A stretch of 64,000 nucleotides of DNA from Caldanaerobacter sp. (GTDB lineage: Bacteria > Bacillota > Thermoanaerobacteria > Thermoanaerobacterales > Thermoanaerobacteraceae): NCBI RefSeq assembly GCF_049701115.1, contig NZ_JBNATX010000001.1, positions 166,698-230,697 on the forward strand, given 5' to 3'. The notes beneath the pieces were generated by a model. That model did no database searches and was not told where the DNA came from. It worked only from the letters and a program-made list of their open reading frames with translations. This document shows, in pieces, positions 12,873-56,951 of this stretch. The position numbers and the translations under genes are program-made. How positions within the stretch are numbered: position 1 is the stretch's first letter; each line of letters begins with the position of its first letter.

Positions 12873-13496
12873 TTACGACGAAAAAATAGGAAGAAATAGT
12901 ACATGGGGAGTAACATAGGATTCTATTAAACAACCCAGCATTATAAAAAGAAAACCCGCATATACCGCAAAACTGTAAGAAATGAATTGTGAAATGAGCT
13001 CTTCGAAAAAAAATTTTTTGTTTTTAAGAAGGTATAAAGAAAAATTGATTGCTGTTACAGAAGTAAAAAGTATTCCTAAAAGTATGAAAATATTCTGAGG
13101 AAGCAACCCTAAAATAGTCAACAGTACTCCTTTAAGCTGCATCTCTTTTATCATTATTCCTATTGAGAATCCAAGAGTAAACCCTCTAACTCCAACAATA
13201 AGGAAGATAAAAGGAATTCCAACTATGGTAGCTCCCAAAATCCACAGCAAAAAAACTGTAACAAAATTATTTAAAAGGGACTGTTTGAAAATCTGGACAG
13301 GATTTAATTCTACGGACTTTGCAATCTGGTAGAACTTGTCTATATATTCTTTTATCTGTTCCCTCTGAACCTCGGTGATATTATTTACGGTAAAAGTTCC
13401 TACAACAATGCCAATCATCAGAGCAGTTAAAACCAGAATATATAGAGAAAAATTTCCTTTTACATGAGAAGAAAATCCTGCTTTTATAAATTTCAA
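12873..13496 (-). CDS. spoIIM: Stage II sporulation protein M
   Basis: Multi-TM protein; GIPFIFLIVGVRGFTLGFSIG, LPQN and ESYVTP motifs. Confidence 0.92.
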   Translation of the reverse strand: MKFIKAGFSSHVKGNFSLYILVLTALMIGIVVGTFTVNNITEVQREQIKEYIDKFYQIAKSVELNPVQIFKQSLLNNFVTVFLLWILGATIVGIPFIFLIVGVRGFTLGFSIGIMIKEMQLKGVLLTILGLLPQNIFILLGILFTSVTAINFSLYLLKNKKFFFEELISQFISYSFAVYAGFLFIMLGCLIESYVTPHVLFLPIFSS

Positions 13497-13530: not shown

Positions 13531-13559
13531 AATTTATGAATTAAAAGGGGACAATATTC
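13531..13559 (-). promoter_or_regulatory. SigmaE-type promoter of spoIIM
   Basis: GAATA-N16-CATAAATT. Confidence 0.7.
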
Positions 13560-13563
13560 CTTT

Positions 13564-14739
13564 TTAGTTTTCCAAAAACACCTTTCCATATATTCCGCCT
13601 CCCCCTGAGGCAATAGATATTTCTCCATTTCTCGCTTTCAAAATATTAAGAGCAATTTTTTCCCCAACAGCTTTTTTCAATTCCTCATAAGGTGCTTCAT
13701 GAAGCGCGTATATTTCGCTTCCAAAATAATCTACAAGTTTTTTAATAGTTTTTTTACCTATATTGGGAATAAATTCTAGTGGAATTTGATATATATAAGG
13801 GGGCCTAAAAAAAGGGTGCACTGTATCATGGTCTTTTATTTGCTCTATTCTGTCCTTCACTCCCATAACGATCTTATCACTACCACATTTCGGGCACCTT
13901 GTAACAGGGGGAGATTCTTTAGCAATATAGCCACATTCAAGACAAAAAGTTCTGTGATACTTTCCCAATTTCGGGTCTAATCCATAATTTTTTAAAATTC
14001 TTCTACCCCTCACTCTTTTTAAAGCTAACAAAATTTCCTCTAAATTTGGTTCTTCCACCTCTAAGACATTAAACTCTCTCGCAATTTTCCCTAAAGAATG
14101 CGCATCAGAATTAGAAAGAAAAGTTTTTGAAGAAAGCTCTGCTATTTGATCTGCCATATCTGAGTCGGCACTCAATCCCAGTTCTATTGCATCAATTTCA
14201 TTGCAGAAGTTATTAAAGATTTTACTCAGCCTATCTGTAGAACTTCCATAATAGCTTTTAAAAGGAGTAAAAACGTGGGCAGGCACTGGTATTCCATTAC
14301 AGCTTTTTATAACCTCAACCGCTTCTTTACTATTTAGGTTGACTCTTTGAGAACTTAAACTAACATTTTTCATATACTTACTTATTTTTTCAGAAAACAA
14401 GGAAATATCTTCTAAGGTCTTAAAATAGGCAATTAAATGGGGTGAACCCTTTTTTTCACCCCCAATTTCGATTTCACTTCCTAAAATCAGAGTCACTCTA
14501 TCTTTATAGCGCATTCCACCGCCTTCAAGCGGAGATAAAATTCCTTCTTCCTGATATTTTTTTATCTCATATATGAGATGAGGAGATGCACAATCCACTA
14601 CACCAACGATGTCTATACCTTTGAAAATGCTTTTTTCCAGGATGTTAAGAAGTGTCAAATCTCTTGAAGCAGATACTTTTATAAAAACTCCTCCCTCAGT
14701 ACGCCCTACGTGAATGTGAAGGTCTGCATAAACCTTCAT
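13564..14739 (-). CDS. Endonuclease Q family (YqxK/TIGR00375) PHP-domain nuclease
   Basis: DLHIH, PAHVFTP, SNSDAHS, GKYH and CxxC...CxxC zinc finger; real start at ATG 14739 overlapping the nudF stop (ATGA). Confidence 0.85.
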   Translation of the reverse strand: MKVYADLHIHVGRTEGGVFIKVSASRDLTLLNILEKSIFKGIDIVGVVDCASPHLIYEIKKYQEEGILSPLEGGGMRYKDRVTLILGSEIEIGGEKKGSPHLIAYFKTLEDISLFSEKISKYMKNVSLSSQRVNLNSKEAVEVIKSCNGIPVPAHVFTPFKSYYGSSTDRLSKIFNNFCNEIDAIELGLSADSDMADQIAELSSKTFLSNSDAHSLGKIAREFNVLEVEEPNLEEILLALKRVRGRRILKNYGLDPKLGKYHRTFCLECGYIAKESPPVTRCPKCGSDKIVMGVKDRIEQIKDHDTVHPFFRPPYIYQIPLEFIPNIGKKTIKKLVDYFGSEIYALHEAPYEELKKAVGEKIALNILKARNGEISIASGGGGIYGKVFLEN

Positions 14740-15284
14740 AACAAGCCTTCCTTCCCCAATTTCAAGTAATAAAGAACACCTATTACCGTCTTGGAATCTT
14801 TTATCATGTTTTTTAGAATCATTTGCCAAAGTTCCTCAGGAGAATACTCTACCACCTCTAAAAATTCATCTTCATCAGGATGAACTTTAACCTTTTTCAA
14901 GTCTTTTGCAAAGTAAAGATACATTTTTTCGTTTGAAAAGCCTGGAGTGGTATAAAAAGTCAGTAAATGCTTCAAATAACCTGCTTCATATCCCGTCTCT
15001 TCTGAGAGCTCTCTTTTTGCACACTCTTTTGGATCTTCTCCCTTCTCCAACTTGCCAGCAGGTATTTCTAATAGAATTTCTTCTGCGGGTTTTCTGTACT
15101 GTTTTACCAGAAGCAGTTTCCCTTCATTTGTAACTGCGACTATTGACACTCCACCGGGATGTTCGACTACCTCTCTTGTAGTTACTTTACCATTAGGTAG
15201 TTTTACTTCATCAACTCTCAAATTTATGATTTTTCCTTCAAATATCCTTTTACTGCTTACTGTTTCCTCTTTTACATCCATCAT
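14736..15284 (-). CDS. nudF: ADP-ribose pyrophosphatase (NUDIX)
   Basis: Nudix box EIPAGKLEKGEDPKECAKRELSEETG; REVVEHPGG. Confidence 0.9.
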   Translation of the reverse strand: MMDVKEETVSSKRIFEGKIINLRVDEVKLPNGKVTTREVVEHPGGVSIVAVTNEGKLLLVKQYRKPAEEILLEIPAGKLEKGEDPKECAKRELSEETGYEAGYLKHLLTFYTTPGFSNEKMYLYFAKDLKKVKVHPDEDEFLEVVEYSPEELWQMILKNMIKDSKTVIGVLYYLKLGKEGLL

Positions 15285-15302
15285 TTATATCTTCCTTTCT
15301 AT

Positions 15303-15331
15303 GTATAAATTTTACTCTAAATACATATTAT
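15303..15331 (+). promoter_or_regulatory. SigmaE-type promoter of the plus-strand small ORF, overlapping a divergent sigmaA -10 (TATAAT, minus strand, 15327-15332) for nudF
   Basis: GTATA-N16-CATATTAT. Confidence 0.65.
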
Positions 15332-15349
15332 AAAAATGAGGTGAGGAAA

Positions 15350-15451
15350 ATGCTAGTGTTTCTATATGTAGGAAAATTTTCAACTCTTATATCCCTTTTA
15401 AATAAGCTCGCAAAACAAAAATTAACCTTAAAAGATCTATTAAATTCCTAA
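15350..15451 (+). CDS. MciZ-like small protein (33 aa, putative FtsZ inhibitor)
   Basis: RBS GAGGTGAGG; MLVFLYVGKFSTLISLLNKLAKQKLTLKDLLNS; divergent from nudF like B. subtilis mciZ; gap-free VGK...L...KD register with MciZ. Confidence 0.65.
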   Translation: MLVFLYVGKFSTLISLLNKLAKQKLTLKDLLNS

Positions 15452-16516
15452 TAGTTCAGTAGCTACATAAATAGAAGCTGCACCACAAGCATTAAAAAAC
15501 TCTTTTTCTTCCTCGTAGCCTCTTCCCATAGTAGTCACATCAAAGTCCATTTCTCGCAAACAATCACCGGTTAACTCTGAATCTATAAAGCGTACATCAA
15601 ACCTTGAAAAAACTGGATTTGAAGCTATCTGATTCCTTACCAGTCTTTCCTTTTCTTCTTCCATGTTGGGAAAAGTTATGACAGAGGAAGAATAGCAGAG
15701 TTCTAAAACAGTTATGGTATGATGGCTTATCCCTTGATGCCTTCCTCTCGCATCTTTAAAACTTATCCTTGGAATAAGGACAGGCTTCCCTCCCATTTTA
15801 TTGACAGCATCTATTATGTAAGCCTGCTCAACGCCCGAAAAACCATACTTTGTACCCGTTCCCACTATTCCTGGCCCCATAGAAACTATTGCCACATCTG
15901 ACTTCAAAATTTCCTTAGAAGCTATAAGAGCGGTGTAGATATTGACACACTCATAGTCTCCGCCAAAGGCATGGCCAATAGTTATTGTAGCATCAAGAAC
16001 TCCCATGCCTTTAAGTTTATACACTGTATTGCTAATAGGAAGAGGTAATGCTCCTCCATCCGTCATTATATAAGTAATCTTAATGTCTGGCAGAAGTTTT
16101 TTTAACACCAGTGCCGAGGGAGTTACCATGCTGTGAAGTTCTCCTATTATTACAGGAAACCCGTTTAAATTCTTAAATTTATCAAACTCTTGGTGATATG
16201 GACTTGTTTCTTCTTCCATGGTCAGCAAATTCACCTGAAGAGGAGTATACCTTAGTTTCATTATATGACCTTTCCCAATGTTATCAAACTTATTATATTT
16301 CAAATTTGCGATAATAAAGTCATACCCACCCGTCCCTAAATTCAAAAGTCTAGCAGTCCTGTTAACATACACTAGATCTCCCTCTTCAACCTCTCCCGTT
16401 ATTTCATTGTAATTTATAGCTGCAGCCTTTTCACCTTCAGCCTCTATTTCTACTATAGAAATTTTGCCTCTTTTCGAAATTATTTTGCTTATTTGCCCAA
16501 GGTATATACTTATCAT
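15440..16516 (-). CDS. DUF3866 family protein
   Basis: LNLGTGGYDF, GHIMKLRYTPLQ, GELHS, MTDGGALP, MGPGIVGTGTKYGFSG. Confidence 0.8.
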   Translation of the reverse strand: MISIYLGQISKIISKRGKISIVEIEAEGEKAAAINYNEITGEVEEGDLVYVNRTARLLNLGTGGYDFIIANLKYNKFDNIGKGHIMKLRYTPLQVNLLTMEEETSPYHQEFDKFKNLNGFPVIIGELHSMVTPSALVLKKLLPDIKITYIMTDGGALPLPISNTVYKLKGMGVLDATITIGHAFGGDYECVNIYTALIASKEILKSDVAIVSMGPGIVGTGTKYGFSGVEQAYIIDAVNKMGGKPVLIPRISFKDARGRHQGISHHTITVLELCYSSSVITFPNMEEEKERLVRNQIASNPVFSRFDVRFIDSELTGDCLREMDFDVTTMGRGYEEEKEFFNACGAASIYVATELLGI

Positions 16517-56246: not shown

Positions 56247-56951
56247 TCACATTGAAAGCTCTTTATAAAGTTTAGTCAGCGCTTTCTTCTCAATCCTTGA
56301 GACATAAGAACGAGAAATCCCAAGCATTTTTGCAATTTCCCTCTGGGTCCTTACCTTACCATTGTAAAGTCCGTACCTCATCTCTATTATAATGCGCTCT
56401 CTGTTTTTCAAAACGCTATTTAATTTATTGTAAAGCTTTTTAATCTGTATCTTTTTTTCCACCTGATCAGATATTTCATCCTCTTCTGTTCCAAGTACAT
56501 CCATAAGTGAAATCTCATTGCCTTCCTTATCTACCCCTATTGGGTCTTGAAGAAAAACCTCTCCCCTCATCTTCTTTTCGGCCCTTATAGACATGAGAAT
56601 TTCATTTTCTATACACTTGGCAGCATATGTGGCAAGGTGAGTACCCTTTTCAAAGTCGTAAGTATCTATGGCCTTAATTAGTCCGATTGTCCCTATAGAG
56701 ATAAGGTCATCTAAATCTCTCCCCGTCCCACTGTACTTTTTCACTACATGTGCCACAAGCCTCAAATTTCTTTCAATCAGCACGTTTCTTGCCTCTTCAT
56801 CTCCGTTCTTATAGGCTTCCAAATATTTTTTTTCTTCTTCTGGAGTCAGAGGATTAGGAAAGGAATTTGTATTGCTTAAGTAACCCAAATTTATTATCTC
56901 TCTTACAACTGCCCCTAAAAGTGCAGCAACGACTTCCCACATGGCCGCCAC
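56247..56951 (-). CDS. sigK: Pro-sigma K, uninterrupted
   Basis: Hydrophobic pro-sequence, SFPNPL, RNLRLVAHVVKKY, ISRSYVSRIEK. Confidence 0.95.
   Translation of the reverse strand: MAAMWEVVAALLGAVVREIINLGYLSNTNSFPNPLTPEEEKKYLEAYKNGDEEARNVLIERNLRLVAHVVKKYSGTGRDLDDLISIGTIGLIKAIDTYDFEKGTHLATYAAKCIENEILMSIRAEKKMRGEVFLQDPIGVDKEGNEISLMDVLGTEEDEISDQVEKKIQIKKLYNKLNSVLKNRERIIIEMRYGLYNGKVRTQREIAKMLGISRSYVSRIEKKALTKLYKELSM

What the first reader, a model, noticed from the sequence alone, without database searches (positions are those of the whole stretch)
15303..15451. Unannotated 33 aa MciZ-like peptide with a sigmaE promoter, the only plus-strand gene
Seen: GTATA-N16-CATATTAT, then RBS GAGGTGAGG, then ATG 15350 encoding MLVFLYVGKFSTLISLLNKLAKQKLTLKDLLNS; it is below the ORF-track cutoff, divergent from nudF and overlaps the DUF3866 stop by 12 nt. 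Established: B. subtilis mciZ is a sigmaE-controlled 40 aa FtsZ inhibitor next to nudF. Its recalled sequence aligns without gaps from VGK to KD (VGKAWEIRAKLKEYGRTFQYVKDWI vs VGKFSTLISLLNKLAKQKLTLKDLL). The N-terminus is shorter and the Trp17/Arg20 equivalents differ, so this is a divergent member or has a different target.
Basis: partly seen in the sequence, partly recalled or inferred. Interest (0 to 1): 0.8.

Follow-up and report, generated by a model that had tools for sequence, protein, structure and literature searches.

The report
Shortened MciZ-like sporulation peptide gene
The uncalled 33-codon reading frame is a real, conserved gene: a shortened, divergent relative of MciZ, the small Bacillus peptide that stops the mother cell dividing again during spore formation, and relatives of it sit in the same slot in many clostridial genomes.

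Summary
The ORF runs divergently from nudF and overlaps the DUF3866 stop by 12 nt.

The ORF is not chance. All 21 genomes of the same family carry a 33-40 aa ORF in the same nudF/DUF3866 gap, with synonymous changes in excess (median dN/dS 0.33). A profile of the family finds end-to-end matches in 106 of 401 genomes of the phylum, and 103 of those have SpoIVA.

The window peptide alone does not hit Pfam MciZ. Six of ten tested clostridial peptides from this slot exceed the Pfam cut-off. Profile-profile comparison with Bacillus MciZ gives 96.8% probability, E 3e-10. B. subtilis has the same gene arrangement: EndoQ-like yqxK, nudF, then divergent mciZ.

A mother-cell sigma promoter motif (ATA-N15-17-CATANNNT) lies upstream in 28 of 38 members. 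sigE, spoIIGA and spoIVA are present in this genome.

The window copy is the most divergent one. It has a 4-aa deletion that removes the predicted beta-hairpin, and a conserved Tyr is replaced by Lys.

Verdict: a new, divergent member of a known kind. FtsZ inhibition is inferred, not shown. Interest is moderate.

The parts
15303..15307 (+). -35-like element GTATA (ATA core at 15305-15307) of a mother-cell sigma (sigmaE-type) promoter
   Evidence: Sequence read. An ATA core 15-17 nt upstream of CATA is conserved in 28 of 38 family members. PMC3789822 gives ATA as the sigmaE -35 motif and AC as the sigmaK one.
15324..15331 (+). -10 element CATATTAT
   Evidence: [quoted passage not shown] The position is conserved in the DNA alignment of 21 relatives.
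15338..15346 (+). Ribosome-binding site GAGGTGAGG, 3 nt before the ATG
   Evidence: GAGGTG or GGAGG is conserved at this position in the relatives.
15350..15451 (+). 33-aa ORF (with stop): a shortened MciZ-family peptide, MLVFLYVGKFSTLISLLNKLAKQKLTLKDLLNS
   Evidence: ORF. It is conserved in frame in all family genomes. Synonymous changes are in excess. It scores 31.8 bits against a family HMM built without it and its nearest relative, and 22.0 bits against an HMM of non-family clostridial members. The family links to Bacillus MciZ by hhalign. AF2 predicts helices at 10-23 and 27-31.
14736..15284 (-). nudF (NUDIX hydrolase), divergent neighbour; its start is 65 nt from the peptide ATG
   Evidence: Pfam NUDIX at 80.5 bits. 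It is 48% identical to B. subtilis NudF, which sits next to mciZ.
13564..14829 (-). EndoQ-like / YqxK-like gene downstream of nudF (synteny marker; the true start is probably the ATG at 14739)
   Evidence: Pfam PHP_C and HHH hits. It is 45% identical to the B. subtilis gene next to nudF over residues 32-417 (L034).
15440..16516 (-). DUF3866 gene, convergent with the peptide gene; the two overlap by 12 nt at their stop codons
   Evidence: Pfam DUF3866 at 436.7 bits. The same convergent arrangement is seen in most clostridial loci.
13531..13560 (-). Internal comparison: spoIIM promoter region GGAATATT-N14-CATAAATT, with the same ATA-N16-CATA geometry
   Evidence: Sequence. spoIIM is sigmaE-dependent in B. 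subtilis (PMC6126333).

Best explanation
The 33-codon ORF at 15350-15451 is a genuine small gene. [quoted passage not shown]

Proposed mechanism. After asymmetric division, sigmaE-RNA polymerase in the mother cell would start at the ATA-N16-CATATTAT promoter. That gives a very short leader that begins about at the RBS. The peptide would bind the C-terminal polymerisation face of FtsZ, with its N-terminal strand joining the FtsZ beta-sheet and its helix packing beside it. This would cap filaments and prevent a second Z ring.

Shown here: the ORF, its conservation and purifying selection, its homology to MciZ through clostridial intermediates, its synteny with B. subtilis mciZ, the conserved promoter motif, and the presence of sigE, spoIIGA, spoIVA and a B. 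subtilis-like FtsZ in this genome.

Inferred: transcription by sigmaE, translation, and binding to and inhibition of FtsZ.

The window copy, like that of Caldanaerobacter subterraneus, lacks 4 residues that form the hairpin turn, so at most one strand could be added to FtsZ. I put homology at about 0.9 and retained FtsZ inhibition at about 0.6.
For: - ORF, RBS and promoter sit exactly as described.
- The ORF is conserved in frame in all 21 family genomes, in a nudF/DUF3866 gap of 156-193 bp (342 bp in the one copy with a repeat insertion). Other families of the order and class have a gap of only 16-53 bp, apart from one 506-bp gap in a more distant genome.
- Invariant G-K-F carries synonymous variation. 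Mean pS is 0.67 against pN 0.29, and median dN/dS is 0.33. Window versus its nearest relative gives sd/S = 15.2/22.8 against nd/N = 21.8/73.2, Fisher p = 0.0035.
- The B. subtilis locus has the same order and orientation: yqxK-like (-), nudF (-), mciZ (+), with 73 bp between nudF and mciZ against 65 bp here.
- hhalign of 31 clostridial peptides against 13 Bacillus MciZ: 96.8% probability, E 3.1e-10, 40 gapless columns.
- With the window copy left out, the chain still holds. Family versus other clostridia: 99.0% probability, E 5.7e-18. Other clostridia versus Bacillus: 97.2% probability, E 3.4e-11. The bridging HMM scores the window peptide at 22.0 bits and B. subtilis MciZ at 23.4 bits.
- 18 of the 31 hit Pfam MciZ at E <= 1, and 6 of 10 tested are over the 22.2-bit cut-off.
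- The top two of 177,635 PDB sequences for the family profile are MciZ entries 2MRW and 4U39.
- The promoter motif is present in 28 of 38 upstream regions, against a mean of 0.7 and a maximum of 5 in shuffles. spoIIM in the window has the same geometry. The published motif is in PMC3789822.
- sigE scores 441.7 bits, over its cut-off. spoIIGA lies next to ftsZ. spoIVA is present.
- The genome's FtsZ aligns without gaps to the FtsZ chain of 4U39 at 452 bits.
- The family is tied to sporulation genes: 103 of 106 positive genomes have SpoIVA, against 220 of 295 negative ones, Fisher p = 2e-8.
- AF2 gives the 40-aa relative a hairpin plus two helices at pLDDT 89, which fits the fold described for MciZ bound to FtsZ (PMC4929429; PMC10730256).
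Against: - The window peptide alone has no Pfam MciZ hit at E <= 10 and scores -0.8 bits against a Bacillus-only HMM.
- It is the most divergent copy. A 12-nt in-frame deletion removes the hairpin turn. AF2 predicts no strand, at pLDDT 75.5. The Tyr conserved in at least 90% of the family is Lys here.
- The equivalents of B. subtilis W17 and R20 are Ser and Ile. That R20 matters for FtsZ binding is from my memory only.
- No binding evidence could be obtained, and Foldseek returns nothing for peptides this short.
- From memory, Caldanaerobacter subterraneus, the nearest relative carrying the same deletion, has not been seen to form spores. The gene could therefore be under weakening selection.
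Confidence: 0.65

Rival explanations
1. It is a real, selected small protein of MciZ descent, but the shortened Caldanaerobacter-type form no longer caps FtsZ as MciZ does. It would bind more weakly, bind in a different way, or act on another partner.
For: The hairpin turn is deleted and AF2 predicts no strands. The conserved Tyr is Lys here. The peptide is only 55% identical to its nearest relative, while the flanking DUF3866 and nudF are 80% and 84% identical. Selection is still purifying, so some function is kept.
Against: The GK motif, the following helix and the TLKDL segment are kept in register with MciZ. The promoter and position are unchanged. No alternative partner is suggested by any data.
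Confidence: 0.2
2. It is a decaying gene, a relic of mciZ in a lineage whose sporulation is weak or lost. The ORF is still open but no longer useful.
For: It is the most divergent copy and is truncated. The exact protein has never been called by any annotation. From memory, the nearest relatives are described as non-sporulating.
Against: The deletion is shared with C. subterraneus. Since that split the ORF, RBS and a perfect -10 box have been kept, and synonymous changes exceed non-synonymous ones (p = 0.0035). sigE, spoIIGA, spoIVA, spoIIM and a sigma-K-like gene are intact.
Confidence: 0.08
3. The main product is the RNA. A sigmaE-driven transcript antisense to the DUF3866-nudF operon would interfere with that operon in the mother cell, and the peptide would be secondary.
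For: The gene sits antisense between two co-oriented genes that are only 16-53 bp apart in other families. It converges on DUF3866 with overlapping stops, and no terminator-like site was found.
Against: The conservation is at the protein level: codon-position pattern and dN/dS. B. subtilis mciZ has no such antisense arrangement. There is no Rfam match.
Confidence: 0.05
4. It is a chance ORF in the AT-rich nudF promoter region and is not a gene.
For: The ORF is short and gets no direct Pfam, NCBIfam or PDB hit on its own.
Against: In-frame conservation across 21 family genomes and about 100 genomes of the phylum, a conserved RBS, excess synonymous change, and Pfam-level MciZ membership of peptides found in the same slot in other clostridia.
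Confidence: 0.02

Closest known systems
MciZ of Bacillus subtilis (Pfam PF13072; PDB 4U39 with FtsZ, 2MRW alone)
   Same: - Both are small cytosolic peptides.
- Same position and orientation: divergent from nudF, next to the EndoQ-like yqxK.
- Both have a very short leader behind a mother-cell sigma promoter.
- Gapless alignment over the GK motif, the helix and the C-terminal segment.
- Full-length relatives are predicted as a hairpin plus helices.
   Different: - 33 aa rather than 40 aa, with the hairpin turn deleted.
- W17, R20, Y26 and W36 of Bacillus MciZ are not conserved.
- Below the Pfam cut-off on its own.
- It converges on DUF3866, whereas in B. subtilis the next gene is a co-oriented aldo-keto reductase.
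- Activity on FtsZ is untested.
Clostridial MciZ-like peptides in the DUF3866/nudF slot (e.g. MKVYVNHNRIFFVGKVFQLRKYLSDYALKYATVKEMITKSLN, at 37.3 bits to PF13072)
   Same: Same slot, same promoter motif, same length class. hhalign gives 99% probability against the Thermoanaerobacteraceae clade.
   Different: They keep the full hairpin. Many have Arg at the position of B. subtilis R20, and most end in xL[NH]. The window copy has none of these features.
Thermoanaerobacter / Thermoanaerobacterium 37-40 aa 'hypothetical proteins' (e.g. Tmath_1159, Thethe_01291, TKV_c12300)
   Same: These are the direct orthologs, with invariant G-K-F, L, L, L and T positions.
   Different: They are full length with the hairpin and a conserved Tyr. 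They are annotated only as hypothetical. None reaches the Pfam cut-off (best 13.3 bits).

Membership tests
MciZ (Pfam PF13072) | Scores at or above the Pfam gathering cut-off (22.2 bits) | tested here: not met
   The window peptide gets no hit at E <= 10, and the best Thermoanaerobacteraceae member reaches 13.3 bits. Six of ten clostridial peptides from the same slot do pass, at 22.3-37.3 bits. The window copy is therefore outside Pfam's operational boundary, but it is the positional ortholog of sequences inside it.
MciZ (Pfam PF13072) | Detectable sequence homology to Bacillus MciZ over the whole peptide | tested here: met
   hhalign of the clostridial family against Bacillus MciZ gives 96.8% probability, E 3.1e-10, 40 columns. 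The chain holds without the window copy (99.0% and 97.2%). The PDB profile search ranks 2MRW and 4U39 first. The Thermoanaerobacteraceae clade alone gives only 23% probability, P = 8.7e-4.
MciZ (Pfam PF13072) | Genomic position: divergent from nudF, beside the EndoQ-like yqxK | tested here: met
   B. subtilis loci L034 and L035 compared with window genes at 13564-15451.
MciZ (Pfam PF13072) | Peptide of about 40 aa with an N-terminal beta-hairpin followed by a helix | tested here: not met
   The 40-aa relative is predicted with strands 2-4 and 7-9 and helices 14-24 and 31-39, at pLDDT 89. The window 33-mer has helices 10-23 and 27-31 but no hairpin, at pLDDT 75.5, because 4 residues of the turn are deleted. 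The helical part is kept and the hairpin is not.
MciZ (Pfam PF13072) | Expression from a sigmaE-dependent promoter in the mother cell | tested here: inconclusive
   The motif ATA-N16-CATATTAT is present and conserved and matches the published consensus. sigE and spoIIGA are present.
MciZ (Pfam PF13072) | Binds the C-terminal polymerisation face of FtsZ and inhibits Z-ring assembly | not testable with these tools
   Only the presence of a B. subtilis-like FtsZ was shown (452 bits, gapless alignment to 4U39 chain A). A complex could not be predicted with the tools available.
MciZ (Pfam PF13072) | Residues invariant or nearly so in Bacillus MciZ (A16, E18, R20, K22, Y26, D35, W36) | tested here: not met
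   Only G-K, one Leu and the Asp of KD are shared with the window peptide. Arg at the R20 position is kept in many other clostridial members but not in Thermoanaerobacteraceae.

The most novel reading that the evidence does not exclude
The 33-aa Caldanaerobacter-type form is a naturally minimised MciZ. It has lost the beta-hairpin and the Trp, Arg and Tyr positions of the Bacillus protein, yet remains under purifying selection. It would therefore inhibit a thermophile's FtsZ through a single-strand-plus-helix mode not seen in 4U39, or it has been retargeted to another partner. More broadly, mciZ would be an ancient part of the endospore programme that predates the Bacilli/Clostridia split and is fixed in the DUF3866-nudF slot, not a Bacillus-specific addition.
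Probability: 0.25. Interest if true: 0.6.

Novelty: new member of a known kind. Interest (0 to 1): 0.45.

Why it matters
MciZ is discussed in the searchable literature only as a Bacillus protein. Of 177 papers that mention it, 9 also mention Clostridium, and the ones I opened do so only in passing.

Here a peptide in the same position, with a mother-cell promoter motif, is found in about a quarter of sampled genomes of the clostridial phylum, almost only in those with SpoIVA. It mostly goes uncalled or is labelled hypothetical. This suggests that blocking FtsZ in the mother cell with a small peptide is an old and widespread part of endospore formation.

It also provides a natural series of variants for studying how short peptides cap FtsZ: full hairpin, shortened, with and without the Arg. 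Some come from genetically tractable thermophiles. For annotation, it shows a real gene that current Pfam and NCBIfam models miss in Thermoanaerobacteraceae.

Tried and rejected
- Direct Pfam scan of the 33-aa and 36-aa peptides: no hit.
- PF13072 against the whole genome: only chance matches inside long ORFs, best E 0.2.
- NCBIfam: it has no MciZ model; even B. subtilis MciZ finds nothing.
With a 40-aa first row it reached only Thermoanaerobacteraceae 'hypothetical proteins'.
- Foldseek of both AF2 models against the PDB: 0 matches, because the peptides are too short.
- Rfam on the intergenic region and on the L011 insertion: nothing, so a known RNA element is rejected.
- The generic sigma-70 and terminator scan found nothing relevant.
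- Handler 2008 and Bisson-Filho 2015 are not held, and no paper with 'R20D' was found. Contact residues therefore rest on memory and were not used as evidence.
- GTG 15341 as the start was rejected. It lies inside the conserved Shine-Dalgarno sequence and has no RBS of its own, although one C. subterraneus record uses the equivalent start (38 aa).
- The -35 element was checked for the sigmaK 'AC' motif. It is absent, so sigmaE is preferred, though the -10 box fits both sigma factors.

Full report
**1. The observation.**
Reading window 15000-15800 confirms every element:
- GTATA at 15303-15307, followed by a 16-nt spacer
- CATATTAT at 15324-15331
- GAGGTGAGG at 15338-15346
- ATG at 15350, 33 codons, and TAA at 15449-15451

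The ORF lister extends the frame to GTG 15341 (36 aa). That GTG lies inside the Shine-Dalgarno sequence, so ATG 15350 is the likely start.

The neighbours on the minus strand are:
- nudF at 14736-15284 (NUDIX, 80.5 bits)
- DUF3866 at 15440-16516 (436.7 bits), whose stop overlaps the small ORF by 12 nt
- an EndoQ-like gene at 13564-14829, spoIIM at 12873-13496 and a xerD-like gene further on

All long ORFs of the window that are not overlapped by a longer one are on the minus strand. The exact 33-aa and 36-aa sequences are absent from a collection of about 15 billion predicted proteins, so the gene has not been called anywhere.

**2. It is a gene, not a chance ORF.**
I used DUF3866 as an anchor in 40 related genomes and located nudF in each locus.
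- All 21 genomes of the same family have a DUF3866-nudF gap of 156-193 bp (342 bp in the one copy, L011, that carries a repeat insertion).
- The other families of the order and class have a gap of 16-53 bp. One more distant genome has a 506-bp gap.
- Every one of the 21 long gaps holds an ORF of 33-40 aa on the opposite strand, in the same register. The consensus is MIIxxNKIYYxGKFSxLLKLLNELSxKYKTLxELINxx, and G-K-F, three Leu and a Thr are invariant.
- The DNA alignment shows synonymous variation at the invariant residues (GGA/GGG/GGT/GGC, AAA/AAG, TTT/TTC) and a conserved RBS.
- Across 171 pairs, mean pS is 0.67 against pN 0.29, median dN/dS is 0.33, and third codon positions vary most.
- For the window against its nearest relative, 15.2 of 22.8 synonymous sites differ against 21.8 of 73.2 non-synonymous sites (Fisher p = 0.0035).
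- No Rfam family matches the region.

**3. What it is related to.**
The window peptide alone has no Pfam hit, and the genome has no PF13072 match above chance. One family member hits MciZ end to end at 13.3 bits, E 0.074.

The link comes from intermediates.
- Searching 401 genomes of the phylum with the family profile found about 30 end-to-end matches in short open frames.
- Nearly all of these lie between DUF3866 and nudF, or next to the EndoQ-like gene.
- These sequences look much more like MciZ. An example is MLYEIVVKNRIYLVGKMQEVLAQLKQYEKQCVTLKEFINRKLD.
- An alignment of 31 clostridial peptides against Bacillus MciZ gives 96.8% probability, E 3.1e-10, over 40 gapless columns.
- 18 of the 31 hit PF13072 at E <= 1, and 6 of 10 tested exceed the 22.2-bit gathering score, the best at 37.3 bits.
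- The profile's two best matches among 177,635 PDB sequences are MciZ itself, 2MRW and 4U39.

Leave-out tests show the result does not depend on the window sequence.
- An HMM of the 22 non-family clostridial members scores the window peptide at 22.0 bits and B. subtilis MciZ at 23.4 bits.
- Family (without the window) versus the others: 99.0% probability, E 5.7e-18.
- The others versus Bacillus: 97.2% probability, E 3.4e-11.

**4. Synteny.**
The B. subtilis mciZ locus reads: a 387-aa HHH-domain gene (-), NUDIX nudF (-), then mciZ (+) starting 73 bp from the nudF start. The window reads: EndoQ-like (-), nudF (-), then the peptide (+) 65 bp from the nudF start. The window genes are 45% (EndoQ-like) and 48% (NudF) identical to the B. 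subtilis genes. This evidence is independent of the peptide sequence.

**5. Promoter and sporulation context.**
- In 28 of 38 upstream regions, from many families, ATA-N15-17-CATANNNT lies upstream of the start. Shuffles give a mean of 0.7 and a maximum of 5. Several of the misses differ by one base.
- PMC3789822 states that sigmaE and sigmaK share the -10 sequence, that the -35 is ATA for sigmaE and AC for sigmaK, and it calls CATATTAT 'a canonical -10 box for mother cell sigma factors'. The window has exactly that box, with ATA 16 nt upstream.
- spoIIM in the window, a sigmaE gene in B. subtilis (PMC6126333), has GGAATATT-N14-CATAAATT with the same geometry.
- The genome encodes sigE (441.7 bits, over the cut-off), spoIIGA next to ftsZ (245.6 bits) and spoIVA.
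- Its FtsZ aligns without gaps to the FtsZ of the MciZ complex 4U39 (452 bits).
- With the broader profile, 106 of 401 genomes (82 of 277 genera) have a match. Of these, 103 have SpoIVA, against 220 of the 295 without a match (Fisher p = 2e-8).

**6. How the window copy differs.**
- A 12-nt in-frame deletion, shared with Caldanaerobacter subterraneus (hypothetical protein O163_08075), turns MIIVGNTLYYAGKF into MLVFLYVGKF.
- AF2 predicts a hairpin (2-4, 7-9) and helices 14-24 and 31-39 for the 40-aa Thermoanaerobacter protein, at pLDDT 89.2.
- For the window 33-mer it predicts only helices 10-23 and 27-31 after an extended N-terminus, at pLDDT 75.5.
- In 4U39 the MciZ hairpin adds two strands to the FtsZ C-terminal sheet (PMC4929429). 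The N-terminus is unstructured without FtsZ (PMC10730256). The window form could add at most one strand.
- The Tyr conserved in at least 90% of the family is Lys here.
- The Bacillus W17 and R20 positions are Ser and Ile. Many other clostridial members keep Arg at the R20 position.
- The peptide is 55% identical to its nearest relative, while the flanking proteins are 80-84% identical.

**7. Mechanism.**
Most likely, sigmaE-RNA polymerase transcribes the gene in the mother cell from a start about 7 nt after the -10 box, giving a leader of roughly 12 nt. B. subtilis mciZ has a similarly short distance. The peptide would then bind the C-terminal polymerisation face of FtsZ and cap filaments. Homology, position, promoter motif and selection are shown here. 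Transcription, translation and FtsZ binding are inferred.

Rival readings:
- altered or lost FtsZ binding in the shortened form (0.2)
- a decaying relic (0.08)
- a mainly antisense-RNA role (0.05)
- a chance ORF (0.02)

**8. Comparison and novelty.**
This is a divergent positional ortholog of MciZ. It works like an MciZ by inference only. It fails Pfam's score threshold and lacks the hairpin, so I file it as a homolog outside the current model rather than a model-defined member.

In the searchable literature MciZ is treated as a B. subtilis or Bacillus protein. The Thermoanaerobacter and Thermoanaerobacterium orthologs are named only 'hypothetical protein'. Some clostridial members pass Pfam's cut-off, so databases may already list them; I could not check Pfam's taxonomic range.

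Novelty class: new member of a known kind. Interest: 0.45.

**9. Limits.**
- The key MciZ papers are not held.
- No complex prediction was possible.
- Foldseek is uninformative for peptides this short.

Noticed in passing
L011 (G009), about 1340-1500 in window orientation: In one Thermoanaerobacter genome the 3' end of the mciZ-like gene is interrupted by an insertion of about 135-160 bp flanked by a duplicated GAAGTAAT..AAATCAG. The ORF now ends ...GEVIRVKN. The insert belongs to a dispersed repeat with 11 partial or full copies in G001, 3 in G009, 1 in G003 and none in this genome. It has no Rfam match.
   Followed up: partly
L057 and L059 (G344, G206): Two clostridial MciZ-like ORFs run on for 60-100 further codons after the conserved ...DLLSS end (open frames of 145 and 108 aa). 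This could be a lost stop or a fusion.
   Followed up: no
Alignment A4/A5 (loci L041-L065): Most non-Thermoanaerobacteraceae clostridial members end in a conserved x-L-[N/H] C-terminus (KLN, NLH, KLH, ELN and others). Bacillus MciZ and the Thermoanaerobacteraceae clade lack it.
   Followed up: no
G021, G027-G033 (other families of the same order and class); loci L025-L033: The nearest other families have DUF3866 and nudF only 16-53 bp apart. Those included in the phylum-wide profile search (G021, G027-G033) have no MciZ-like match anywhere in the genome, although they have SpoIVA. The gene is either lost there or diverged beyond recognition.
   Followed up: partly
window 13531-13560 (-): spoIIM has a sigmaE-type promoter, GGAATATT-N14-CATAAATT, starting a few bases after the stop of the EndoQ-like gene.
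   Followed up: partly
window 14737-14829 (-): The listed TTG start of the EndoQ-like ORF (14829) overlaps nudF by 94 nt. All homolog alignments begin near residue 26-35, so the true start is probably the ATG at 14739 (MKVYADLHIH...), overlapping the nudF stop by 4 nt.
   Followed up: partly
window 56247-56951 (-): This 234-aa ORF matches the sigmaE model at 244 bits, below the equivalog cut-off. It is probably sigK. The true sigE is on another contig, next to spoIIGA and ftsZ.
   Followed up: no
cluster of P0027: Two 1139-aa ENA 'proteins' (P0033, P0035) are clustered at 90% identity with the 40-aa Thermoanaerobacter peptide. This looks like a gene-calling or clustering artefact.
   Followed up: no
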